The position numbers and the translations under genes were made by a program. The notes beneath the pieces are model-generated. The model did no database searches and had not been told where the DNA came from. It saw only the letters and a list, made by a program, of their open reading frames with translations. This document shows positions 35,617-53,040 of a stretch of 64,000 bases of DNA, piece after piece (position 1 is the first letter of the stretch; the number at the start of each line of letters is the position of its first letter). The stretch comes from Pelagomonas calceolata (taxonomy: Eukaryota), in NCBI GenBank assembly GCA_918797485.1, contig CAKKNE010000002.1, positions 5,518,001 to 5,582,000 of the forward strand, given 5' to 3'.

Positions 35617-35916
35617 TTTCTCTTTTTTTTGCACTGCTGCTCTTGCGGCTGCTGCACGCTGCACGCTGCAGACAGAGGCAGACCGGTGGTTGTGACCGCG
35701 TGCTTGGCCGAAAAGCTACCGCTTCTGGCGGTGCATCAATGGCACGTCACTTTTTGTCTCTCGTTCTTGTCTTTGGGCCAGTAGGCGCCTAAAGGGCGAT
35801 TATATTGTGGCGGCGGCTAGGCTGCCTTCCTAATGCCTTACAGGCTGCTAGCGCGATCTGGGACTTGGCAGCCGAAGCGGGAGGATTGCGAGCCTCCTGT
35901 GCGTTCCTGGGAAGCC

Positions 35917-37065
35917 ATGCTGCTGAGTCGTGCACGTTTCGCAGCGGTCCGAGCTTCACACAATCGCCTGGCGCAATCCAGGCTGCAGCCTGCTTCCCGC
36001 CTGGCCTCGAGCCAACGCGGATTCCAGGAGTGGGGCACCCTCCGGGAGCGCGCGACGCGCTGGCTCGAGCGCCGCCGGGCCTACCGGCTCGCGTCGAGCC
36101 TCGCGAGCAAGTGGTGGATCCGCCGGCCGCTCCGGGCGGGGCGCTACGTCGTGTTGGGCGGCGTTTTGTTCGCGAGTGGTCGAGAAATCGGCAGCATCGA
36201 GTACGCGAACGACCCGGTGGCGAAAGAAAGGGAGCTCCTCGAGGCTGTCATAAGGAGCGCGGGCGGCGTCCGGGCCTCGGTCGACGGCCTGCACGCCATC
36301 GCCGCGCTCCCTCCCACAAAACGGACGAAGCGCGTCGACGCCCGCGTCCAGCCCGTCGTCGCGCGCTGCGTCGCGGGCGCGCGCGAGCTGGCGCGAAGGC
36401 GGCTCGAGAAGGCCAAGGCGAGCGGCGTGAAGCGTGACATCGACGAAGCCCAGGCGCTCGTCAACAAGATCAGTAGGCCCTGGAAGGCCGTGGTCGTGGG
36501 CACGCCCGACGGGGGGCTGCCCTTCATTAATGCCTGGGTGACGGCCTTGTGCCCGCGCACTGTCTTCGTGACGGAGGCGCTCGTCGAGGAGCTCGACCCG
36601 ACGCCCGACGAATTGGCTTTATGCATCGGCCACGAGCTCGGGCACCTGGTCTGCGGGCACACGGAGGATAGGATTTACTTGAAGGCCATGCTCGCCTACG
36701 CCGAGCTGATTCTGCTGGCGTTCCTCGACCCGACGGGGCTGCTCACATTATTGGGTGCCATGGGTTTTCAGAACACGGCCGAGCTGTTCCTCGCGAAGTA
36801 CTCGCGGGATAACGAGACGGAGGCCGACGCCACTGGGCTGAAGATCGCTGCTTTAGCGTGCTACGACGTCCGGCGCGGCACGCATTTCATGAGGAAGCTC
36901 AGCGAGGCGACGGGTTCGCGGCCGACGTCGTGGTGGGCGACGCACCCGGCGACTGAGGACCGCTACGCCGACCTGCGGAGCAGTTCGCTGGGCGTGCACG
37001 AGAACGTCTACGGGTCGCACTGCACCGCCGTGGGGAAGGCGCTCCAGCGCCTCGTGACTCGGTGA
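35917..37065 (+). CDS. OMA1: Peptidase M48 (OMA1-like), probably mitochondrial
   Basis: DELALCIGHELGH, YSRDNETEADATG, WWATHPATEDR; Arg-rich N-terminus. Confidence 0.85.
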   Translation: MLLSRARFAAVRASHNRLAQSRLQPASRLASSQRGFQEWGTLRERATRWLERRRAYRLASSLASKWWIRRPLRAGRYVVLGGVLFASGREIGSIEYANDPVAKERELLEAVIRSAGGVRASVDGLHAIAALPPTKRTKRVDARVQPVVARCVAGARELARRRLEKAKASGVKRDIDEAQALVNKISRPWKAVVVGTPDGGLPFINAWVTALCPRTVFVTEALVEELDPTPDELALCIGHELGHLVCGHTEDRIYLKAMLAYAELILLAFLDPTGLLTLLGAMGFQNTAELFLAKYSRDNETEADATGLKIAALACYDVRRGTHFMRKLSEATGSRPTSWWATHPATEDRYADLRSSSLGVHENVYGSHCTAVGKALQRLVTR

Positions 37066-37181: not shown

Positions 37182-40100
37182 TCACTTCCGATGCTTCTTG
37201 AGGAGCGCGACGATGGACGAGTTGCCCCATCTTTTTGCGATGGACAGAGGTGTGTCACCCCAGTTCGTCGCCCGATCGACCGCCGTGCCTTTGTCCAGCA
37301 ACAGCTGCGCCGCGTCGACGTGGCCGTTGTAGCAGGCGATGTACAGCGGCGTCGCCCCGTTCTTTTGCGCCCGGTCTACCTCCGCGCCTTTTTCTAGCAA
37401 GAGCTGCGCCGCGTCGACGTGACCGTTCTGGCAGGCGATGTACAGCGGCGTCACACCGTTCTCCTTCGCCCGATCGACCTCCGCGCCTTTGTCCAGCAGC
37501 AGCCGCGCCGCGTCGATGTGGCCGTGTTCGCACGCGACAAATAGGGGTGTCAGGCCGTCCTGTTTAGCTTGGTCGACCTCGGCGCCTCCGTCCAGGAGTT
37601 GCGTCATCGCGTCGACATCGCCGATCTTGGCAGCGGCATGCAACGGGTAGAGGTGGTCATCGATCAACGTGACGACTTCTTCATGATCATTATACTTTGC
37701 TGCGTCCAGCGCAGTCCCCCCGTCCTCGTCCGCCCGGTCGACCTCCGCGCCTTTTTCCAGCAACAGCCGCGCCGCGTCGACGTGGCCCTTCTCGCAGGCG
37801 ATGTACAGCGGCGTCCGACCGTCCTTCTTCGGCGGATCGACCGCCGCGCCTCTCTCCAGCAACAGCCGTGCCGCGTCGACGTGGCCCTCAGTACAGGCGA
37901 TGAACAGCGGCGTCCGACCGTCCTCTGCCGCCCGGTCGACCTCCGCGCCGTTATCCAGCAGCAGCCGCACCGCGTCGACGCGGCCTTTTTCACAAGCGGC
38001 GTACAGCGGCGTCCGGCCTTCCTTGTCCGCCCGATTAGCGTCCGCGCCTTTATCTAACAACAGTTGCGCCGCATCGACGTGGCCCTTCTGGCAGGCGACG
38101 TACAGCGCCGTCAGACCTTCCCGCCATCCGTCTGACCACACTCGTGACCCCGCTCGATCAACCTCCGCGCCTTTATCTAACAAGAGCCGCGCCGCCTCGA
38201 CGTGGCCGTTCTGGCAGGCGACGCACAGCGGCGTCGTGCCGTTCTGATTCGCCCGATTGACCGCCGCGCCGTCGTCCAGCAGCTGCCGCGCCGCTTCGAC
38301 GTGGCCGTTCCGGCACGCGGCGTACAGCGGCGTCCAGCCGTCCTTATCCGCCCGATCGACCTCCGCGCCTTCATCTAACAACAGCCGCACCGCGTCGACG
38401 CGGCCGTTCTCGCAGGCGATGAAAAGCGGCGTACGGCCGTTGTCCTGCGCCCGGTTGACCTCCGCGCCTTTTTCCAGCAACAGCCGCGCCGCGTCGACGC
38501 GGCCGTTCTGGCAGGCGTCGTACAGGACCGTACATCCCTTTTCGTTCGCCCAATTCGGATCAGCGCCGCGCTGGAGACATAACCGCATCACATCGAGGTT
38601 CCGGTTTCGGCAAGCAATAAGAAGCGGAGTTGCGCCATCCAAGCACAATTCGACAGCTGCTCCGTGGTCTAGAAACAGTGTCGCGACGTCGAGGTGTCCG
38701 CAAGCACATGCAATCCCAAACGGCGACCACTCAGTCTCACGCCGCTTATCGACCGCGGCACCAGCATCGAGCAGCAAGCGCGCGACGCCGATGTGCCCTT
38801 TCAAACTCACAACGAACAGTGGCGTATAGCCATCACTATCTTCCTGATCGACGCAAGCGCCCTCCTGAAGAAGAGCGCTTATTGCGGCGACGTCACCCTT
38901 GTAGCACGCAAGCGTCAGTGGCGTCGTGCCGCTCTCGATGCGCAGCTCCCCCCACCGCTTCCCGAAAGCCACAAAGAGCCCGCTCGTATCGCCCCTGACA
39001 GCCAACGCCCTAACATCATCATCAAAAGCAACCACCCGCAGCGCCTCACCGCCCTTGCTTGCGTCCCACACCCGCAAAGTCTTGTCGCGCGACCCGCTCA
39101 CGAGCCGCGTCTCGCCCGTCGCCGGGTCTGCGAAGGCCGTCAGCGCGTTCACAGTGTTCGTGTGTCCCTCGAGCACGAACAGTAGCGCGCCGCCCGCGGC
39201 CAAGTCCCAGATGCGCACCTTGTTGTCTATTGATCCGCTCGCGAGGCGAAGGCCACCCGCCGCCGGGTCTTCGAAAACGGTCAACGCCCACACCGATTCC
39301 GTGTGCCCCTCGAGCACGACCAGTGCCTCTCCGCCCGCAACCGGGTCATATATGCGCACCTTCCCATCACCACGTGCACCACAAGCGAGCCGCGGCGCGC
39401 CCGTCGCCGGGTCTTTGAAGACCGCCAGCGCGCGCACCTCCGAGCCAAGGTCGATCACGACCAGCGCTTCACCACCAGCGACCGGGTCGTATATGCGCAG
39501 ATCACCACTTTTCTTTCGCCAATTGCCCGTCCCGCACACAAGCCGCAGCGCGCCCGTCGTCGGGTCCGCGAAGAACGCCAAAGCAAACTCAATGCCGACG
39601 GCGATCACGACCAGTGCCTCGCCGCCCGCGACCGGGTCGAAGACACGCACCTTCTCATCTCCAGAGCCACAAGCGAGCCGCGGCGCGCCCGTCGCCGGAT
39701 CCACAAAGAACGCCAGCGCATTCACCTCCGAGCCAACGTCAATCACGAGCAGCACACCACCAGTCTCCGCGTCCCACACGCGAACCGTCTTATCCCAGGA
39801 CCCAGTCGCAACCAGCAGCGCGCCCGTCGCCGGATCTACAAAGTTTACCAGGGCCCTCACCTCCTTAGAGTGCCCCTCGGGCTCCGCCTCGATCGCCGCG
39901 CCGCCCGCCGCCGGGTTCCAGACTCGGACGTTATCACCGTCTGCGCTCACGAGCCGCGGCTCGCCCGTCGCCGGGTCCGTGAAAGTTGTCAAAGAGGCCA
40001 CTAACCATTTGTGTCCCTCGAGCACGACCAGCGCCTCACCGCTCGCGACCGGGTCGAAGACGCGCACTTTCTGATCTTTTGACCCGCTCGCGAGTCGCAG

Positions 40101-43100
40101 CGCGCCCGTCGCCAGGTCTTTAAATGCGACCAGTGCACCCACTGGCGAACCCACGTCGAGCACGAGCAGCGTGTCGCCGCCAGAAACAGCGTCGAAGATG
40201 CGCACCTTCCCATCCATAGAGCCGCACACGAGTCTCGGCGCGCTCGTCGCTGGTTCCTTGAAGACCGCCAGTGCAAACACATGAGAACCAACATCTAGCA
40301 CGAGCAGCGCGTCGCCGCCCGCGACCGGGTCGAAGACAAGCACCATGTCTCCCGACGCGCATGCAAGCCGCGGCGCGCCCGTCGCCGGGTCTTTGAAGAC
40401 TTCTAGTTTGCTAGTAGTAGTACCCACGTCGATCACAAGCAAAGCTTCGCCGCCAGCGACCGGGTCGAAGACACGCACCTTTCCGTCCCGTGACCCACTA
40501 ACAAGGTAAGGAGTGCCCGTCGCTGGATTCGCGAAGACCGCCAGCGCATACACCCAAGAGCCCACCTCGAGCAAAAGCATTGCCTCGCCACCGGCGACCG
40601 GGTCGAAGATGCGCACTTCGCCATTATCACAATCTGCAACCCGCGGGTGCATGCTGGTACCACAAGCAACCCGCGGCTCGCCCGTCGCCGGATCTTTGAA
40701 GGCCGCCAGCGCATTCACCTGAGAGTACCGTTCGGCGGCGCCGTTAATCACCACCAGCGCCGCACCACCCGCGACCGGGTCATAGATGCGCACTTTGCCG
40801 TCATGAGAACCACAAGCAACCCGCGGCTCGCCCGTCGCCGGATCCACGAACGTCGCCAAGCAGTCAGCACGAGTCTCGATCCGACACCGCTCCGCCCCAC
40901 CCGCCGCCGTCAGACCCATCGGTCGCGCGGCCGAGAGGGGCAGCTTGCTTGCGACGCGTCTCAAATCCTCGGCCAGGCGTCCCGCGGCCGACTTAGCATC
41001 GGCGCGCGGCACAAGCCGCTGCCACAACTGCTCTACGAGAGGCAACCCCCGTGATAGCAGGTTCCGCGACAACACCAATGCATCGGACAACAAAAATGTG
41101 TCCTGTTCCTTCAGAGCACGCAAGTCGGCCACGAAGGAAGCGATGTCGCCGGCGCTCCGCTTCCGCACGTACGACAGGCTACACGCCACAGCGACGGCCT
41201 CGCCCTCAGCAGAAGACCGCTTCATGTGAAACAAGCACCAACGCAACGCATAAGCATCCGATGCCACACCACCCTCGCCCTCCACAAATGAAGCCAGCAC
41301 TTCATCCGCGGCCGCGTCGCTCGAGTGCGACTCGGTATCAAGTACCCCAGCACGAACCGCCTGAGCACACGCCCGCGCCAGCCGCCGATGCGCCGCGTCC
41401 CGCGCGACGAAGAAATCGTCCTCAGAAGAGCGCTTGTCGAACGGCGCCTCGCCCGTCAGCCAGTCCGTCACTGTCTTATGTAAAACACCAATGACGTCGC
41501 CCTCGCGTAGTGGGAACAGCAGGGACAAGCCATCACAGACCTTCTTGCACCACGCCCGATCCCAGCCCAACGCACTACTCGCCGCGTCGACGGTGAGCGG
41601 CTCGGCCGCGGCACACACAAGTTCCACCAGCGGCAGCGCGTCGCGCCACGCAGCATCATCAACGAATACGCGTCGAAAGTTTTCCTCGTAGATCTCGTCG
41701 AGGCCCGCCGGCAGCGCGCCGACGCTCGCAAAGTCGATCTTGCCAGTCGTTGCCTCGAGCTGGTCCGCGATGAGCCGCGCGTAGAGCATGAGCCCGTCGG
41801 CTTTCCGCTCGAGTGCACTCACTGCGGCGTCGAGCGCCGACGAGTTGAGGCGCTCTGAAATGAATGCCTCGAGCGCCTCCGCCCCGACACTCGTGTCCTT
41901 GCACATGTCAGGTAACGCCGCACGGATCACTTCATACTGATCGTGCGCGATGTGCTTGGCGTCCGCAATGCTCTTCAAATTCAGTTGATTCTCCGCGATG
42001 TGCGTCTGGCTGTCGTCGAGGGGGACGCGGACGTTCAAATTAAAGTCGCGGTAGCCCATGGGCGTGGGGTGGGCGAACTTGTTCTTCACTTGGGCTATCT
42101 CCAGGCCGACGCTTGCGAGCCGATTCAGGACGTCGAGCAGTTCATCGGGAGTCTCACACAAGATAGTAGCTCGAGAGAGATCTTTGAGATAACGAGCGTC
42201 GCCGCCGTAGTCATTGGCGAGCTTTTGCAGCGACCGCGGACGACCCTTTACGCCTGGACTCTGTATATCATCGTGGAGCTTTCTCAAAGAATCAACCAAA
42301 ACCTTCTGAGCCACTGCGGCTTGGGCATAGAGCGTCTCGAAATCGCCCTCGTCCTGCTTGAGTCCTGGGTTTCGTCGCTCCCTGTAGGCCTCTAGCTTGT
42401 CGAGTCCGCTCACGCCTCGCATGGCTTCCGCGTACGTGGCCTTGGCTCGACGGAGCGGATCTTCGAGTGCCGCAAAACCTCCGAGGCGACCGGCGAGCTC
42501 CGGGAACTTCGCCTCGACCTCGTGTCGCAGCGACTCCATCGTCACCTCGAGCTCGATGTGCTCCTTTGCGAGTTCAGTTAGGTACGCCCTCACGTCCTGC
42601 CGATTCCGTCCTTCGTCGACACGGAGCTCCGTCGGCGTGTAGCCCTTCAGTGTAGCCTTAATTTGCGCCTCGTCGCGGCTTGTCGCTACGATTTTGATCC
42701 AGGGCGGTAGCGTCTTGAGCTCGGTCGCGAGCAGCGACAGCACGGGCTTCAGCGCGTCGCGCGGCAGCTCGTCGAGCGCGTCTATGACTAATACGAGGGC
42801 GTCGTCCGGGCCGCGCGGCGCCTTGACGCTTCGCAACGGCTTCGCTACTAAAGCCTCGAAGAGCTCGTCGACCTTGTCGGTCTCGACGCTAGCGCCCTCC
42901 CTCCGCGCGTCTCCGAAGCCCTCCACCGTTGCACACAGCATGCCCGCCAGAGACCGCAGCAGCACCGCTGGCGCGGACCGCGCCGGCTCGGTGTGCTTGC
43001 AAAAGTGCCACGCGGCCGCGTTTTCCTTGTCGAGCAGCCGCGCGAGCAATTCAGCCGCTGCCACGCTCTTGCCCGTGCCGCCGCCGCCGATCAACCAGAA

Positions 43101-43439
43101 GAGCTTTGCGCTATCAACGTCAGTCCGCCAGCGGAGCACCGCCTCGAAGACCCACTCGCGCGTGCCGGGCAGGTGCTGCCCGCGCTTCTCCGCAATTATG
43201 GCCGAAAAGTCCAGCGCTTCCGCCACGTCGGAGCGGTCGACGCCGTGGAGCTTTTCGTAGAGCGCCTCGGAGATCGCGGCCTTGGCCTCGGACTCCTTCC
43301 AGCACCGCACTGCCTCGTCCCTGGAGATCTTGGCTTCCGCGAACTTCTCCTCCCACGCGGGCTGCCACTTGGCGCCCGCCAGCTCCTTCGCCTCGGCAAG
43401 CGAGACCTCCTCCGGGAGAGATGATATACCACCGCCCAT
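37182..43439 (-). CDS. NLR-like STAND protein: NACHT with an inserted RelA/SpoT-like domain, WD40 repeats and ankyrin repeats
   Basis: Start MGGGISS at 43439. GTREWVF, Walker A GGGGTGKS, Walker B LVIDALDE, VATSR; GYRDFNLNV..HIAENQL; ~14 WD40 and ~18 ankyrin repeats in one intact frame. Confidence 0.9.
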   Translation of the reverse strand: MGGGISSLPEEVSLAEAKELAGAKWQPAWEEKFAEAKISRDEAVRCWKESEAKAAISEALYEKLHGVDRSDVAEALDFSAIIAEKRGQHLPGTREWVFEAVLRWRTDVDSAKLFWLIGGGGTGKSVAAAELLARLLDKENAAAWHFCKHTEPARSAPAVLLRSLAGMLCATVEGFGDARREGASVETDKVDELFEALVAKPLRSVKAPRGPDDALVLVIDALDELPRDALKPVLSLLATELKTLPPWIKIVATSRDEAQIKATLKGYTPTELRVDEGRNRQDVRAYLTELAKEHIELEVTMESLRHEVEAKFPELAGRLGGFAALEDPLRRAKATYAEAMRGVSGLDKLEAYRERRNPGLKQDEGDFETLYAQAAVAQKVLVDSLRKLHDDIQSPGVKGRPRSLQKLANDYGGDARYLKDLSRATILCETPDELLDVLNRLASVGLEIAQVKNKFAHPTPMGYRDFNLNVRVPLDDSQTHIAENQLNLKSIADAKHIAHDQYEVIRAALPDMCKDTSVGAEALEAFISERLNSSALDAAVSALERKADGLMLYARLIADQLEATTGKIDFASVGALPAGLDEIYEENFRRVFVDDAAWRDALPLVELVCAAAEPLTVDAASSALGWDRAWCKKVCDGLSLLFPLREGDVIGVLHKTVTDWLTGEAPFDKRSSEDDFFVARDAAHRRLARACAQAVRAGVLDTESHSSDAAADEVLASFVEGEGGVASDAYALRWCLFHMKRSSAEGEAVAVACSLSYVRKRSAGDIASFVADLRALKEQDTFLLSDALVLSRNLLSRGLPLVEQLWQRLVPRADAKSAAGRLAEDLRRVASKLPLSAARPMGLTAAGGAERCRIETRADCLATFVDPATGEPRVACGSHDGKVRIYDPVAGGAALVVINGAAERYSQVNALAAFKDPATGEPRVACGTSMHPRVADCDNGEVRIFDPVAGGEAMLLLEVGSWVYALAVFANPATGTPYLVSGSRDGKVRVFDPVAGGEALLVIDVGTTTSKLEVFKDPATGAPRLACASGDMVLVFDPVAGGDALLVLDVGSHVFALAVFKEPATSAPRLVCGSMDGKVRIFDAVSGGDTLLVLDVGSPVGALVAFKDLATGALRLASGSKDQKVRVFDPVASGEALVVLEGHKWLVASLTTFTDPATGEPRLVSADGDNVRVWNPAAGGAAIEAEPEGHSKEVRALVNFVDPATGALLVATGSWDKTVRVWDAETGGVLLVIDVGSEVNALAFFVDPATGAPRLACGSGDEKVRVFDPVAGGEALVVIAVGIEFALAFFADPTTGALRLVCGTGNWRKKSGDLRIYDPVAGGEALVVIDLGSEVRALAVFKDPATGAPRLACGARGDGKVRIYDPVAGGEALVVLEGHTESVWALTVFEDPAAGGLRLASGSIDNKVRIWDLAAGGALLFVLEGHTNTVNALTAFADPATGETRLVSGSRDKTLRVWDASKGGEALRVVAFDDDVRALAVRGDTSGLFVAFGKRWGELRIESGTTPLTLACYKGDVAAISALLQEGACVDQEDSDGYTPLFVVSLKGHIGVARLLLDAGAAVDKRRETEWSPFGIACACGHLDVATLFLDHGAAVELCLDGATPLLIACRNRNLDVMRLCLQRGADPNWANEKGCTVLYDACQNGRVDAARLLLEKGAEVNRAQDNGRTPLFIACENGRVDAVRLLLDEGAEVDRADKDGWTPLYAACRNGHVEAARQLLDDGAAVNRANQNGTTPLCVACQNGHVEAARLLLDKGAEVDRAGSRVWSDGWREGLTALYVACQKGHVDAAQLLLDKGADANRADKEGRTPLYAACEKGRVDAVRLLLDNGAEVDRAAEDGRTPLFIACTEGHVDAARLLLERGAAVDPPKKDGRTPLYIACEKGHVDAARLLLEKGAEVDRADEDGGTALDAAKYNDHEEVVTLIDDHLYPLHAAAKIGDVDAMTQLLDGGAEVDQAKQDGLTPLFVACEHGHIDAARLLLDKGAEVDRAKENGVTPLYIACQNGHVDAAQLLLEKGAEVDRAQKNGATPLYIACYNGHVDAAQLLLDKGTAVDRATNWGDTPLSIAKRWGNSSIVALLKKHRK
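37190..38930 (-). repeat. Ankyrin array of ~99-bp units with high internal similarity
   Basis: Repeated GxTPLYxACxxGHVDAAxLLLxKGAEVDRA, visibly similar at the DNA level. Confidence 0.9.
38940..40880 (-). repeat. WD40 array of ~140-bp units
   Basis: Repeated F.DPATG.PRLACGS.DGKVR(I/V)(F/Y)DPVAGGEAL; 13 clear units plus a degenerate one. Confidence 0.9.
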
Positions 43440-43763: not shown

Positions 43764-45383
43764 TCAGGCGTCGAGCGCCGCGCGGAGCGTCTCGGCGACG
43801 CGCGCGCACTCGTGCTCCTCGATGACGAAGGGCGGCGCCAGGATGAGGACGTTGCCGAGGCCCGGCACCGTCGACGCGTTGCGGCCGACGACGACGCCGG
43901 CGTCCGCGCAGCGCCGCACGATGGCGCCGCACGCGTCATCATCTAAAGGCGTCTTGGTGTCTCGATCCGCGACGAGCTCGACGCCGACCAAGAGGCCGCG
44001 GCCGCGCACCTCGCCCACGTGTTTGTGCGCGCCGATGGCCTCCTCCAACGTCCGCTTGAGGAACGCGCCCATCTCCGCCGCCCGCTCGACCAGCCCCTCC
44101 CGCTCCACGATCTCGATGTTGCGCAATCCCACAGCACAGGCGACGGGGTGCCCTCCATAGGTATTGATCGACCGCAAGTGCGCTAGCCGCGGCGGCAGCG
44201 TCGACGCGACCTTGCCCTGGTGCACGGCGTCCGGGCAGTCATGAAAGTTCGCGAACACCCTATCGGAAACGACGCAGGCGCCCAAGGGCTGGTACCCAGA
44301 AGTCAGGCCCTTGGCGAGCGTCACGATGTCCGGAGTTACGCCGTAGTGGTGGTGCCCGAACATCGCGCCGGTTCTTCCAAAACCGCTCACGACTTCATCC
44401 AATATGAGTAAGACGCCGTGGTCGTCGCAGACCTTGCGGACCTCCTTCAAATAATTTTCTGGAGGGACTAAGACACCTCCCCCGGACGTGATCGGCTCGC
44501 AGATGAACGCCGCGACGGTCTCGGCGCCCTCCATGCGGATCGTCTCATCTAGTGATGCGGCCAAATCGAGACCGTGCTGCGCTTCCGTCTCTCTAGAGCG
44601 GTAGGGATAAGGCGTCCCCACCTTGATGTAGCCCGGCGGCTGCGGCCCGAACCCGATCTTCCGCTCCGCCTGGCCCGTGGCCGCCATAGCACCCGCGGTG
44701 TTGCCGTGGTAGGCGCGGTGGCGCGAAATGATCTTGTACCGTAGAGGTCCCGACGGGTCCTGCTCGACGTTCGCCGCGTGGAACTGCCTCGCAATTTTGA
44801 AGGCAGCCTCGTTCGCTTCAGAGCCGGACGCCGTGAAGTAGGCGTGCGCCGGCGCGCTCCAATCCAGTAAATCGGAAATTTTCGTGGCGAGCTCGATCTG
44901 GGGGATGGAGCCGTGCGCCGGCGACAGGAAGGGGAGCTGAACCATGGCGTCGTAGGCGACCCTCGCGAGCTCTTCGCGCCCGTACCCGACGTTGACGCAC
45001 CAGAGGCCGCCCATGGCATCCAACTTCGTGGACCCATCTAAGGAGTAGAGCGTCGAGTTGTGCGCGTAGTGGACGGCCGCGGGCGGCTTGGATTCGTCAC
45101 AGGACCAGGAGCGCTGCTGCGTCATCGGGTGCCAGACGTGCTTGGCCTCCTTCCTCTGTAGATCTTCTATCAAGGACGCGAAGTTCGGCTGTTCCTCCAT
45201 TCTATGAGCGGCCGTGCTCAGTTCTCGGTTGAAGGGCGGCGGCGCGGCCGCGCCGGCGGCGGTGCTGAGCTGCGGGGCCGACGTCGGCTGGAGCGGGCCG
45301 TCGGTCGGTCGGGCGACCGTGGACTTGAGTGCGGTGCGTTGCGCAGCGGCCGCGCGGCCCCGGAGGGCGAGGGCGCGCCGCAT
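43764..45383 (-). CDS. Class III PLP aminotransferase (taurine/omega-amino acid:pyruvate type) with a transit peptide
   Basis: DAMGGLWCVNVGYGR, SGSEANEAAFK, AYHGNT, DEVVSGFGRTG, PDIVTLAKGLTSGY, NTYGGHP. Confidence 0.92.
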   Translation of the reverse strand: MRRALALRGRAAAAQRTALKSTVARPTDGPLQPTSAPQLSTAAGAAAPPPFNRELSTAAHRMEEQPNFASLIEDLQRKEAKHVWHPMTQQRSWSCDESKPPAAVHYAHNSTLYSLDGSTKLDAMGGLWCVNVGYGREELARVAYDAMVQLPFLSPAHGSIPQIELATKISDLLDWSAPAHAYFTASGSEANEAAFKIARQFHAANVEQDPSGPLRYKIISRHRAYHGNTAGAMAATGQAERKIGFGPQPPGYIKVGTPYPYRSRETEAQHGLDLAASLDETIRMEGAETVAAFICEPITSGGGVLVPPENYLKEVRKVCDDHGVLLILDEVVSGFGRTGAMFGHHHYGVTPDIVTLAKGLTSGYQPLGACVVSDRVFANFHDCPDAVHQGKVASTLPPRLAHLRSINTYGGHPVACAVGLRNIEIVEREGLVERAAEMGAFLKRTLEEAIGAHKHVGEVRGRGLLVGVELVADRDTKTPLDDDACGAIVRRCADAGVVVGRNASTVPGLGNVLILAPPFVIEEHECARVAETLRAALDA

Positions 45384-45833
45384 TTTGCGTCTAGAGTGCT
45401 CCTGTGTTCGTCGCGCTGACTGCGCACGCTACGCGGCGTTTCGGACTGCGCCTTCTTGCGTGTCCCGTAAGTGCGGCCTCTGCGGCCCCAGGGTATGCCG
45501 TGTTGCTTGTGCTGCGCTTTGTACGCCTCAATCAGACGCACTTTTGTCAAAACGACTGCAAAGCGCTCAAATGATGCCCTTGGTGACCGTTGGAGGGGGA
45601 ATTCAAAAAGAACCTCTCCTAGCACTCGTGCTACGTGGTGCTGAAACCAGAAAAAGGCGTTTTGGCTTCGAGGCTCTGGGCCTCTTCCTAGTGCCTCTAT
45701 AGGCCGCTAGCTCTGCAAAAAATCGCATCGGCGGCCTTTAGGTCGCCAAGGAGACAAGCAGGGCTCACGTTGTGACTCGTGCGACACCTCTGCTGATCTG
45801 CAGCAGCGAAACCGAGCCAAAAAGCAAGCAACC

Positions 45834-51412: not shown

Positions 51413-52837
51413 TTACTTGCTCTTGTAATATTGGTCGCAAGCCATGAGAACGCCGAGGAGTACCACCGCGGCGCAGATAGAAGATGCGTCGGGCGGGCCT
51501 GGTCGCGGCGCGCGCGCGACGTCGGCGCACTCGAGGCGGTAATGTGTGTATACCGCTTTAAATCTTGACGGCCCGACTGCGTAGCTAATCCGGTCGCCGA
51601 CGGCGAGAAACTCCCCGAGCTGCACTAAGGAAGCCTCGTGCAGTAACAAGTTGTCGCCGTCCTCGCCCCGCACGAAGTAGAACCTCCGCCTTGTGTCGCC
51701 TTGTGTCTCGGAGTAGAACCTCCTATGAACGGGATCACTTAATTCAACCTCTCTGACCTCGTATGCCACCACGACACCCGTAAATCGCTCATCGGATAAT
51801 TCTGCTACCGGGGACGGATCGCCGAGTTGCCATCTGGGTCGTTCTTTGTCCTTCTCCATGGCCTCCTTGTCGGCCCACCACTGGTCGGCGAGCCGACCTC
51901 GGGTCGGCCGGAACCATCTGAAGGCCGAGTAGAGGACATTTGGCTCCACCATCGACTCGGCGCCCTGGAACATCGCCTGCATGGTCCTGACCTGCTGGAC
52001 CCACCAGCCACCGAGCGGTTGGTTGAAGGATCTCGCATCCTTAAACATCCACTTCATATCTAGGACCCTGTGGACCCGCCAGTCGCCCAGCGGCTGGTTA
52101 AACGACGCGGCGCCAAAGAACATCGCGCGCATGTTCCAGACGTTGTGGACCCGCCAGCCGCCGATCGGGTGGTTGAACGACGAGGCGCCGCTGAACATGG
52201 ACATCATGTCCTCGACCTTGTCGACCTGCCAGTCACCCAGCGGTTGGTTGAACGCCGAGGCGCCATCAAACATGTGGCGCATATTCGTGACGTTGTGGAC
52301 CCGCCAGGCGCCGAGTGGGCGGTTAAATGCCGATTGACCTTTGAACATCTTATCCATCGTAGTTACGCTCGAGGTATCCCACGCGCTGATGTCGTCGTTG
52401 AACAGTGGTAAGTCTGCCAAAAGCACACAGGATGTGTCCTCTACGTCATCGTTTTCATTTAACGCGGTCCTGCCAAACAACCCCCGCATGTCCGTGACCT
52501 GGGAGGTGTCCCACGTCGAGATGTGCGGCAAACGTGTGTCGCCGCCGCACCAGCGCCTTATCCAGACTCGCAGCGTCTCGTTCGTGAGAGGTTCCACGAT
52601 GGGAGGCCTGGCGTGCTGCGAGTCTGGGTAACCTCCATGATGCGGCTGAACGAGAGGTTGGGCATCGGCAGCAGCCCGCGCCTGATTTTGACGGGAGGCC
52701 TCGGCGCCACAGATGTGGCCCGGGGGCATCTCGATTGTAATGGGCTCGTACGACTCGCCGTGCTCCAAAGTCATCGTCGGACGCCCATACGACGAGTAAA
52801 TCCATTCTCCTGGGGGTCGGTACCATTCTCCTCGCAT
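51413..52837 (-). CDS. DUF285/BspA-like repeat protein with a cold-shock-like segment and a hydrophobic C-terminus
   Basis: About seven 25-aa FNQPLGDW.V..V.NM..MF.GAS repeats. Confidence 0.85.
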   Translation of the reverse strand: MRGEWYRPPGEWIYSSYGRPTMTLEHGESYEPITIEMPPGHICGAEASRQNQARAAADAQPLVQPHHGGYPDSQHARPPIVEPLTNETLRVWIRRWCGGDTRLPHISTWDTSQVTDMRGLFGRTALNENDDVEDTSCVLLADLPLFNDDISAWDTSSVTTMDKMFKGQSAFNRPLGAWRVHNVTNMRHMFDGASAFNQPLGDWQVDKVEDMMSMFSGASSFNHPIGGWRVHNVWNMRAMFFGAASFNQPLGDWRVHRVLDMKWMFKDARSFNQPLGGWWVQQVRTMQAMFQGAESMVEPNVLYSAFRWFRPTRGRLADQWWADKEAMEKDKERPRWQLGDPSPVAELSDERFTGVVVAYEVREVELSDPVHRRFYSETQGDTRRRFYFVRGEDGDNLLLHEASLVQLGEFLAVGDRISYAVGPSRFKAVYTHYRLECADVARAPRPGPPDASSICAAVVLLGVLMACDQYYKSK

Positions 52838-53040
52838 CGTCGATGGCTGTGCGTGCGCGTGCAGCTGCCCTTAAAGCTGCCCCAGTCGAGCTCAGGAAGC
52901 TTCCTAGTGCCTTACAGGACGCTAGCACTTCGTGGCCGCGTGGCTTGGCATGTCAGGCTTCGCGTTGGCAGTGCTCAACGAGGTATTTGAACACGCATTG
53001 CTGCGAAATTGCATTGCTCGCATCAGCTCTGCTGGACAGC

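What the first reader, a model, noticed from the sequence alone, without database searches (positions are those of the whole stretch)
41900..43439. NLR-like protein with a RelA/SpoT-like nucleotidyltransferase inserted inside its NACHT module
Seen: after Walker A (~43065-43088), Walker B (~42770-42800) and the DVRAYL helix, the chain contains about 250 extra residues. These include VKGRPRSLQKLANDYGGDARYLKDLSR...VKNKF..PTPMGYRDFNLNV...HIAENQL (~41960-42260). The NACHT helical part then resumes (LERKADGLMLYARL, LPAGLDEIYEENFRR, LHKTVTDWL). Established: K..R...K, D..R, GYR and ExQ are the motif series of RelA/SpoT-type synthetase domains, and NACHT proteins with WD40 or ankyrin repeats act as immune/allorecognition receptors that normally carry their effector at the N-terminus. 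Inference: a sensor-gated alarmone synthetase or toxin-type pyrophosphokinase, i.e. a candidate algal antiviral or cell-death system. MGGGISS fits an N-myristoylation signal, suggesting membrane anchoring.
Basis: partly seen in the sequence, partly recalled or inferred. Interest (0 to 1): 0.9.

Follow-up and report, generated by a model that had tools for sequence, protein, structure and literature searches.

The report
Algal immune receptor with embedded alarmone-synthetase
A marine alga's gene encodes an immune-receptor-like ATPase with a bacterial-type "alarmone"-synthetase domain inserted into the middle of its switch module, a layout kept in distantly related eukaryotes; it likely makes a stress nucleotide (probably ppGpp) when triggered, and would give phytoplankton an untested way to shut down infected cells.

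Summary
One open frame (43439-37182, minus strand, 2085 aa; Pelagomonas calceolata by database match) encodes an N-myristoylation-like start, a NACHT/STAND ATPase, WD40 repeats and ankyrin repeats. A 240-residue domain (aa 296-535) sits between two helices of NACHT helical domain 1 that lie 1-15 residues apart in most insert-free NACHTs. Pfam misses it, but sequence, profile and fold searches place it among RelA/SpoT synthetases. The catalytic Asp, Glu and Gln are kept in 34-35 of 35 dereplicated embedded copies. The same insertion occurs in Prymnesium and many unnamed sequences, and the 19 embedded domains tested form one strongly supported branch. RelV-type proteins (ppGpp-only enzymes) score higher than the ppApp toxin Tas1, so (p)ppGpp is the likelier product. 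Pelagomonas carries two insert types, about 60% identical, on NACHT frames 82-89% identical, with variable WD40 positions, as in fungal NLRs. NLRs with an N-terminal RelA/SpoT domain are known in fungi, so this is a new variant, not a new kind. I found no description of the internal placement or the algal family. Activity, ligand and immune role are untested.

The parts
37182..43439 (-). Whole gene as one open frame, 2085 aa: myristoylation-like start, NACHT with embedded synthetase, helical domain, WD40 repeats, ankyrin repeats
   Evidence: the NCBI model (P0002) is identical to aa 1577 and then ends after a predicted 137-bp intron
43419..43439 (-). MGGGISS, an N-myristoylation-like motif (MGxxxS; consensus recalled)
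   Evidence: sequence; MGxxxS starts recur in distant homologs; not tested
43209..43418 (-). About 70-aa N-terminal segment of unknown role
   Evidence: no Pfam match (protein 26); not folded
42555..43208 (-). NACHT/STAND nucleotide-binding domain and first helix of helical domain 1 (aa 78-295): Walker A 43088-43065, Walker B 42791-42768, TSR, DVRAYL
   Evidence: NPHP3_N E=1.3e-23, NACHT 4.8e-7; fold matches MalT, Apaf-1, Avs3; Walker K kept in 30 of 30 covering rows
41835..42554 (-). 240-aa inserted cassette (aa 296-535): helical stem, synthetase core, returning helix
41904..42359 (-). RelA/SpoT-fold synthetase core (aa 361-512): K398, K406, D420, R423, K452, GYRDFN 462-467, E483, Q485, H499
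41370..41834 (-). Remainder of helical domain 1 and winged-helix domain (aa 536-690; LPAGL, LHKTV)
   Evidence: weak AAA_lid_TANC1 match E=0.0015; half-profile matches insert-free NACHTs; model
40890..41369 (-). Helical domain 2-like arm (aa ~691-850)
   Evidence: by position; homologs match APAF1_C here; mostly not folded
38940..40889 (-). WD40 repeats with a conserved scaffold and a few hypervariable positions (candidate sensor)
37185..38930 (-). About 15 ankyrin repeats (present in some paralogs only)

Best explanation
This is an NLR-like NACHT-WD40-ankyrin protein with an intact RelA/SpoT-type synthetase domain inserted in its NACHT module, which likely acts as the receptor's output and likely makes (p)ppGpp in the cytosol to arrest or kill an infected cell. 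Shown: the architecture, the insertion point between helices 1 and 2 of helical domain 1, the synthetase fold, conserved catalytic and ATPase motifs, purifying selection on the insert in pelagophyte paralogs, and faster-changing repeats. Inferred from how STAND proteins work: a lipid anchor holds the protein at a membrane, and in the ADP-bound closed state the synthetase is kept off. Binding of a viral, bacterial or non-self ligand to the WD40/ankyrin repeats would drive nucleotide exchange, rotation of the winged-helix and sensor arm, and oligomerisation. Because the enzyme hangs directly from helical domain 1, that movement would switch it on. It would then transfer pyrophosphate from ATP to GDP/GTP, draining GTP and blocking growth and virus production. 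Product identity is inferred from kinship to RelV/VpEAS.
For: Clean insertion. Confident two-fold model, pLDDT 90.5, matching STAND proteins (MalT Z 16.1, rmsd 7.3, 314 aligned; Apaf-1 Z 15.2) and small alarmone synthetases (RelP Z 14.2, rmsd 3.0, 145 aligned). In 35 dereplicated embedded copies: D420 34, E483 35, Q485 34; all eight key residues in 28. All 12 closest NACHT relatives (46-100% identity) carry the insert and none of 25 distant ones does. All 40 metagenome loci have NACHT flanks. The 19 embedded domains tested form one side of a 100/97 branch against 38 presumed prokaryotic or phage rows. dN/dS is 0.07-0.18 for the insert in 6 of 6 pelagophyte-type pairs, against 0.43-0.55 for WD40 in 4 of 4. 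Variable WD positions on a conserved scaffold resemble fungal NLRs (PMC4986451 passages). RelV-like proteins score 71-84 bits against 39 for Tas1; 35% identity over 156 aa to a protein named RelV. The V. parahaemolyticus homolog has DLARAT, VKNRF and GYRDLN, and VpEAS makes only (p)ppGpp (PMC12691689 passages). Excess ppGpp kills Drosophila cells (PMC7666150 passages). No other effector domain was recognised in this protein.
Against: No activity, ligand, phenotype or expression data for this gene. The gating mechanism is not shown; model coordinates could not be inspected. Motifs do not fix the product: SaEAS has Apk-type motifs yet prefers guanylates, and motif swaps did not change Apk2 specificity (PMC12226406 passages). 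RelV is not a unique sister group: uncharacterised phage-head and other proteins score as high, and Tas1 is the best PDB hit. In the second group of loci, insert dN/dS was 0.50-0.74 in 3 of 6 pairs (low dS) and 0.20-0.25 in the others. Some related domains occur outside NACHT proteins. Neighbouring genes are housekeeping. High plastid ppGpp increased virus susceptibility in Arabidopsis (PMC10107265 passage).
Confidence: 0.45

Rival explanations
1. Same sensor-gated receptor, but the enzyme makes (p)ppApp like Tas1/Apk1 and Apk2 and kills by draining ATP and ADP.
For: Tas1 is the top PDB match by sequence and Foldseek. Tas1 R330, N370, E382 and Q384 align to R423, N467, E483 and Q485 (chain numbering offset 21). 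The insert has the Apk-type R-x-T of syn2 and the Asn of syn3 rather than AVR and SxH; DxN in 30 of 35 embedded copies.
Against: Syn3 reads DxN, not the Apk GxN. RelV-like GYRD proteins score about twice the bits of Tas1 and share the KNxF..P loop that Tas1 lacks.
Confidence: 0.18
2. A regulated signalling enzyme rather than a killer: the STAND switch tunes cytosolic alarmone levels in response to nutrient stress, bacterial partners or membrane cues.
For: Non-immune STANDs exist (MalT is the top fold match). Hydrolase-only RSH proteins are reported from Aureococcus and Emiliania (PMC3153485 passage), which would allow reversible signalling. The gene lies among housekeeping genes.
Against: Multiple paralogs, broken copies, swapped cassettes and hypervariable repeat positions fit a conflict system better than a housekeeping signal.
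Confidence: 0.17
3. The insert is an integrated bait or sensor: it binds a viral or bacterial protein or a nucleotide and trips the NACHT switch, and output comes from the N-terminal segment or a partner.
For: Two insert types about 60% identical sit on near-identical frames in one species, as expected for diversifying baits. Integrated decoys are an established NLR feature (PMC12258605 passages). Some homologs carry other N-terminal domains.
Against: Catalytic residues are nearly invariant across very distant lineages. Both insert types keep them, and the second type is 89-96% identical among five copies. A separate variable sensor already exists.
Confidence: 0.12
4. The domain modifies another substrate (for example tRNA 3' ends like CapRel) or is catalytically idle and structural.
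For: CapRel shares the fold (Z 11.9, rmsd 3.3, 158 aligned). The invariant D465 and a Lys at 454 differ from canonical small synthetases.
Against: Identity to CapRel is 12% against 29% to Tas1, and CapRel is absent from the profile hits at E<=1. Motif conservation argues against an idle domain.
Confidence: 0.08

Closest known systems
Fungal NLRs with a RelA_SpoT effector (RelA_SpoT/NACHT/WD40; Dyrka et al. 2014, PMC4986451; PMC12258605)
   Same: NACHT of the NPHP3_N type with WD40 or ankyrin repeats, an alarmone-synthetase domain, conserved repeats with variable positions, and different effectors on near-identical nucleotide-binding domains.
   Different: There the domain is N-terminal and annotated as PF04607. 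Here it lies inside helical domain 1, escapes PF04607, and the host is a unicellular alga. Fungal domains did not appear among the named hits, but were not compared directly.
RelV / VpEAS exported (p)ppGpp synthetases of Vibrionaceae (PMC12691689)
   Same: 35% identity over 156 aa to a protein named RelV; shared DF..LY..A..AQ helix, DL.R.T, VKN.F..P, GYRD and E.Q motifs.
   Different: RelV is a small single-domain periplasmic protein with a signal peptide. Here the domain is embedded in a 2085-aa STAND protein without a hydrophobic N-terminus.
Tas1/Apk1 and MuF-fused Apk2 (p)ppApp synthetase toxins (PDB 6OX6; PMC10083569; PMC12226406)
   Same: Same fold (Z 13.2, rmsd 3.1, 150 aligned, 29% identity) and aligned active-site residues; related phage portal and MuF fusions are among the hits.
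   Different: Syn3 is DxN, not GxN; no delivery domain; no immunity gene recognised nearby; control is predicted to come from the STAND switch.
Bacterial NLR-related proteins (bNACHT, Avs)
   Same: STAND switch with a repeat sensor and an enzymatic effector; alarmone synthetases are listed as effectors and transmembrane inserts within NACHT are noted.
   Different: No insert-bearing bacterial NACHT was found: one hit in 185,579 genomes, and it looks like a chimeric contig. No PADLOC match for the insert.

Membership tests
NACHT/STAND NLR-like proteins | NACHT-type P-loop domain with Walker A, Walker B and sensor-1 | tested here: met
NACHT/STAND NLR-like proteins | Helical domain 1 and winged helix following the P-loop domain | tested here: met
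   present but interrupted by the insert
NACHT/STAND NLR-like proteins | C-terminal repeat sensor (WD40, ankyrin or TPR) | tested here: met
NACHT/STAND NLR-like proteins | Ligand-induced oligomerisation and immune output | not testable with these tools
   needs experiments
Fungal RelA_SpoT-NACHT NLRs | Synthetase located N-terminal to the NACHT domain | tested here: not met
   the domain is internal
Fungal RelA_SpoT-NACHT NLRs | Effector matches Pfam PF04607 | tested here: not met
   no match for this insert
RSH synthetase (SYNTH) superfamily | Synthetase fold | tested here: met
   top 11 of 48,161 chains are RSH synthetases; RelP Z 14.2, rmsd 4.2, 155 aligned
RSH synthetase (SYNTH) superfamily | Catalytic syn motifs (basic helix, Asp, GY, ExQ, His) | tested here: met
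RSH synthetase (SYNTH) superfamily | Pyrophosphokinase activity | not testable with these tools
   needs an assay
Apk1/Apk2 (p)ppApp synthetases | Signature syn2 RYT, syn3 GxN, syn4 YH (PMC12226406) | tested here: inconclusive
   RAT, DxN, LN here; Tas1 itself has RNT, GVN, VN
Apk1/Apk2 (p)ppApp synthetases | N-terminal PAAR or MuF delivery domain | tested here: not met
RelV / exported alarmone synthetases | GYRD-type synthetase core | tested here: met
RelV / exported alarmone synthetases | Export signal and single-domain layout | tested here: not met
   no hydrophobic N-terminal stretch; embedded domain
Plastid RSH1-4 (long RSH) | Hydrolase plus synthetase domains, canonical SxH and ExQIR motifs | tested here: not met
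   no hydrolase domain; RelSeq only E=0.31

The most novel reading that the evidence does not exclude
Pelagophytes, haptophytes and other protists share an old family of membrane-anchored NLR-like receptors whose effector is a prokaryote- or phage-derived alarmone synthetase grafted into the ATPase switch itself and exchanged between paralogs as a cassette. Pathogen recognition triggers cytosolic (p)ppGpp or (p)ppApp synthesis and abortive cell death. This would be an endogenous alarmone-based immune pathway of eukaryotes acting in abundant phytoplankton.
Probability: 0.4. Interest if true: 0.9.

Novelty: new variant of a known kind. Interest (0 to 1): 0.72.

Why it matters
Antiviral mechanisms of marine microalgae are poorly known, although viruses end blooms of these lineages. 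NACHT transcripts rise in virus-recovered Gephyrocapsa huxleyi (PMC12489294 passages; whether that gene has the insert is unknown). This family offers a concrete receptor, enzyme and product that can be tested with a 240-residue construct. It also bears on whether eukaryotes make alarmones outside plastids, and shows a way of wiring an enzyme into a STAND switch that differs from the usual N-terminal effector. Standard Pfam annotation misses the domain, which may explain why it went unremarked.

Tried and rejected
No whole genome was held, so paralog number and the presence of a matching hydrolase could not be counted. Sequencing-run evidence was not obtained, so splicing of this gene is untested directly. 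Five in-frame GT..AG pairs could formally remove most of the insert. I consider splicing-out unlikely because the insert is stop-free, under purifying selection, retained in the NCBI model and present in a complete transcriptome-derived homolog (P0006). Pfam, NCBIfam and PADLOC gave nothing for the insert. A two-copy complex prediction of the insert gave no verdict (score 0.00); it is not used either way. The protein atlas did not answer. Viral origin of the whole gene is unsupported: 4 viral loci and one phage (2 records) have only the synthetase core, none with NACHT; these scans use narrow patterns. Bacterial membership is unsupported: the single genome hit (L005) joins a pelagophyte-type piece to bacterial-looking genes and is probably chimeric. 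An assembly artefact is rejected because the architecture recurs in many independent records. My first reading, a (p)ppApp toxin, was lowered after the RelV comparison. Searches of earlier scan findings by sequence and by genome returned nothing.
Full report
What is there. The minus-strand frame 43439-37182 is open for 2085 residues. A database protein identical over the first 1577 residues is labelled Pelagomonas calceolata. Pfam finds NPHP3_N/NACHT at aa 92-267, WD40 repeats and about 15 ankyrin repeats, and nothing in aa 281-533.

The insertion is real and clean. I built profiles of the NACHT part before and after the extra segment. Of 25 distant NACHT proteins (coral, fungal and unnamed; 26-38% identity), 22 matched both halves: 1-15 residues apart in 17 and an extrapolated 22-37 in 5; 3 lacked a second-half match. 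The distance is 240 here and 255-265 in seven homologs. The site is the loop between the first and second helices of helical domain 1. A model of aa 70-700 is confident (pLDDT 90.5, pTM 0.76) and matches both STAND proteins (MalT Z 16.1, Apaf-1 15.2, Avs3 14.9) and small alarmone synthetases (RelP 14.2, YwaC 14.1, Tas1 13.3).

The insert is an RSH synthetase domain. phmmer gives Tas1 E=5.9e-9. A 76-sequence profile gives Tas1 7.5e-24, YwaC 1.3e-9, SaEAS 1.8e-6 and RelSeq 0.31. The insert alone folds at pLDDT 95, and its top 11 matches among 48,161 chains are RSH synthetases, ahead of other nucleotidyltransferases at Z 7 or less. Tas1 R330, N370, E382 and Q384 (residues from PMC12691689 passages, which prints the last as Q382) align with R423, N467, E483 and Q485. 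In 35 dereplicated NACHT-embedded copies, D420 is kept in 34, E483 in 35, Q485 in 34, and all eight key residues in 28.

Which product. Tas1 is the best solved match, but not the closest type. RelV-like proteins score 71-84 bits against the insert (P0133, P0162, P0196, P0207) where Tas1 scores 39. One member of the P0207 cluster is named RelV and is 35% identical over 156 aa. The V. parahaemolyticus representative in the supplements of PMC12691689 shows DLARAT, VKNRF and GYRDLN and is 100% identical over the domain to the only listed entry from the strain that yielded VpEAS. That this entry is VpEAS is my inference. VpEAS makes only (p)ppGpp (passages). The published Apk signature is RYT/GxN/YH against AVR/SxH/IR (PMC12226406 passages); this protein has RAT/DxN/LN, and DxN occurs in 30 of 35 embedded copies. 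Motifs do not settle specificity, and uncharacterised phage-head and other proteins score as high as RelV. I put (p)ppGpp at about twice the odds of (p)ppApp.

A family, not a one-off. All 12 closest NACHT relatives (46-100% identity) carry the insert; none of the 25 more distant ones does. Named carriers are P. calceolata paralogs and Prymnesium parvum; most others are unnamed, and one is from EukProt. Of the best 150 of 1873 hits among 50%-identity representatives, 39 show a NACHT flank; the rest are fragments, other fusions or prokaryote-like proteins. All 40 metagenome loci have a NACHT flank and the 4 viral loci have none; the search patterns came from embedded copies, so this count is biased. 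In a quick tree of 130 domains (210 before dereplication), all 35 embedded copies fall in one 58-row branch (SH-aLRT 89) with 23 fragments or non-NACHT fusions. In a careful tree of 57 rows, 19 embedded copies form one side of a 100/97 branch against 38 rows that I labelled prokaryotic or phage, mostly by presumption; 16 embedded rows and the non-NACHT rows of that branch were left out. This fits a single insertion, but the trees are unrooted and name no donor.

Signs of a conflict system. In six pelagophyte-type pairs the insert has dN/dS 0.07-0.18, like the NACHT parts (0.06-0.20), whereas WD40 is 0.43-0.55 in four pairs and ankyrin 0.40 in one. In a second, haptophyte-like group the insert gave 0.20-0.25 in three pairs and 0.50-0.74 in three with low dS, so constraint is less clear there. 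Across 76 WD repeat units the scaffold is conserved and four positions exceed 3 bits of entropy, resembling fungal NLR repeats (PMC4986451 passages); I ran no site-level selection test. Two insert types, about 60% identical, sit on NACHT frames 82-89% identical, with the drop in identity confined to roughly aa 300-535. Both types occur in P. calceolata records (P0002/P0003 and P0263/P0048). This suggests exchange of the cassette or homogenisation of its flanks. Several loci are broken into multiple frames.

Mechanism. Shown: architecture, fold, motif conservation. Inferred from established STAND behaviour (recalled): a closed ADP state, ligand binding at the repeats, nucleotide exchange, opening and oligomerisation. 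The enzyme is attached to helical domain 1, so this change would likely switch it on. An MGxxxS start, recurring in distant homologs, and the lack of a hydrophobic N-terminus suggest the cytosolic face of a membrane, not the plastid. Excess ppGpp is lethal in Drosophila (PMC7666150 passages) and depletes GTP in E. coli, so arrest or death of the activated cell is plausible. None of these steps is tested here.

Relation to what is known. RelA_SpoT is a recognised N-terminal effector of fungal NACHT NLRs (PMC4986451, PMC12258605; passages), and alarmone synthetases are listed among bacterial NACHT effectors (bioRxiv 2022.07.19.500537, passages). The concept of an NLR with an alarmone synthetase is therefore in print, though I saw no functional test in those passages. 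I found no description of an internal insertion or of an algal family in ten full-text searches (listings only, except papers cited as passages); subscription journals are largely outside this library. The raw Tas1 homolog table of PMC10083569 (file cut when stored) lists Pelagomonas (64 mentions), Aureococcus (17), Chrysochromulina WD40/Het-e proteins and Reticulomyxa NACHT proteins. The main text mentions eukaryotes once, in another context, and I did not check the layout of those entries. The supplements of PMC12691689 have no such names. Supplements of the bioRxiv preprint were not seen and may list relevant architectures.

Verdict. The feature is real, conserved and not described in what I could search: a new variant of NLR-like proteins with an enzymatic effector, unusual in the position and subfamily of the enzyme and in its hosts. 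Interest 0.72. Confidence in the full mechanism is 0.45, and about 0.8 that the domain is an active nucleotide pyrophosphokinase.

Noticed in passing
P0010-P0013, P0235-P0237; L014:142-3903, L018, L019, L020, L021, L023-L026, L030: In haptophyte-type members the myristoylation-like motif follows a ubiquitin-style RGG (RGRGG|GCSQS after a ubiquitin-like domain in Prymnesium; RxRGG|MGAGAS in others). A deubiquitinase cut could expose the glycine. Inference only.
   Followed up: partly
window 38571-38707: The NCBI gene model (P0002, 1580 aa) uses a 137-bp GT..AG intron that shifts frame and drops most ankyrin repeats, while the unspliced frame stays open to 37182. Either a model error or alternative splicing.
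   Followed up: partly
L005:1-1329: A contig in an alphaproteobacterial MAG begins with a pelagophyte-type NACHT-insert piece abutting bacterial-looking genes (MutS- and malic-enzyme-like by eye); probably chimeric.
   Followed up: partly
L031, L033-L037, L042 (match regions): Copies broken into several frames, some lacking part of the insert stem; pseudogenes or introns, not resolved. L039 has apparent in-frame introns in the NACHT and synthetase parts.
   Followed up: no
P0153, P0146, P0105, P0103, P0125, P0095: Proteins with the same cassette but no NACHT P-loop, fused to discoidin, HEAT-like, ankyrin or LRR regions; they branch among the embedded copies and some keep traces of the flanking helices.
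   Followed up: partly
L001:2796-5447, L003:228-2510, L004:1954-4236: Phage portal proteins with a C-terminal GYRD-type alarmone-synthetase domain.
   Followed up: no
P0010, P0011, P0013 N-terminal parts: Prymnesium members carry an additional nuclease/phosphatase-like domain (PF03372 listed for P0013) ahead of the NACHT.
   Followed up: no
window 51416-52870 (-): DUF285 repeat protein.
   Followed up: no
window 43767-45428 (-) and 35821-37062 (+): Immediate neighbours are a class III aminotransferase and an M48 peptidase; no alarmone hydrolase or second NACHT was found among 24 of the window's long frames scanned with Pfam or by the NACHT profiles.
   Followed up: yes
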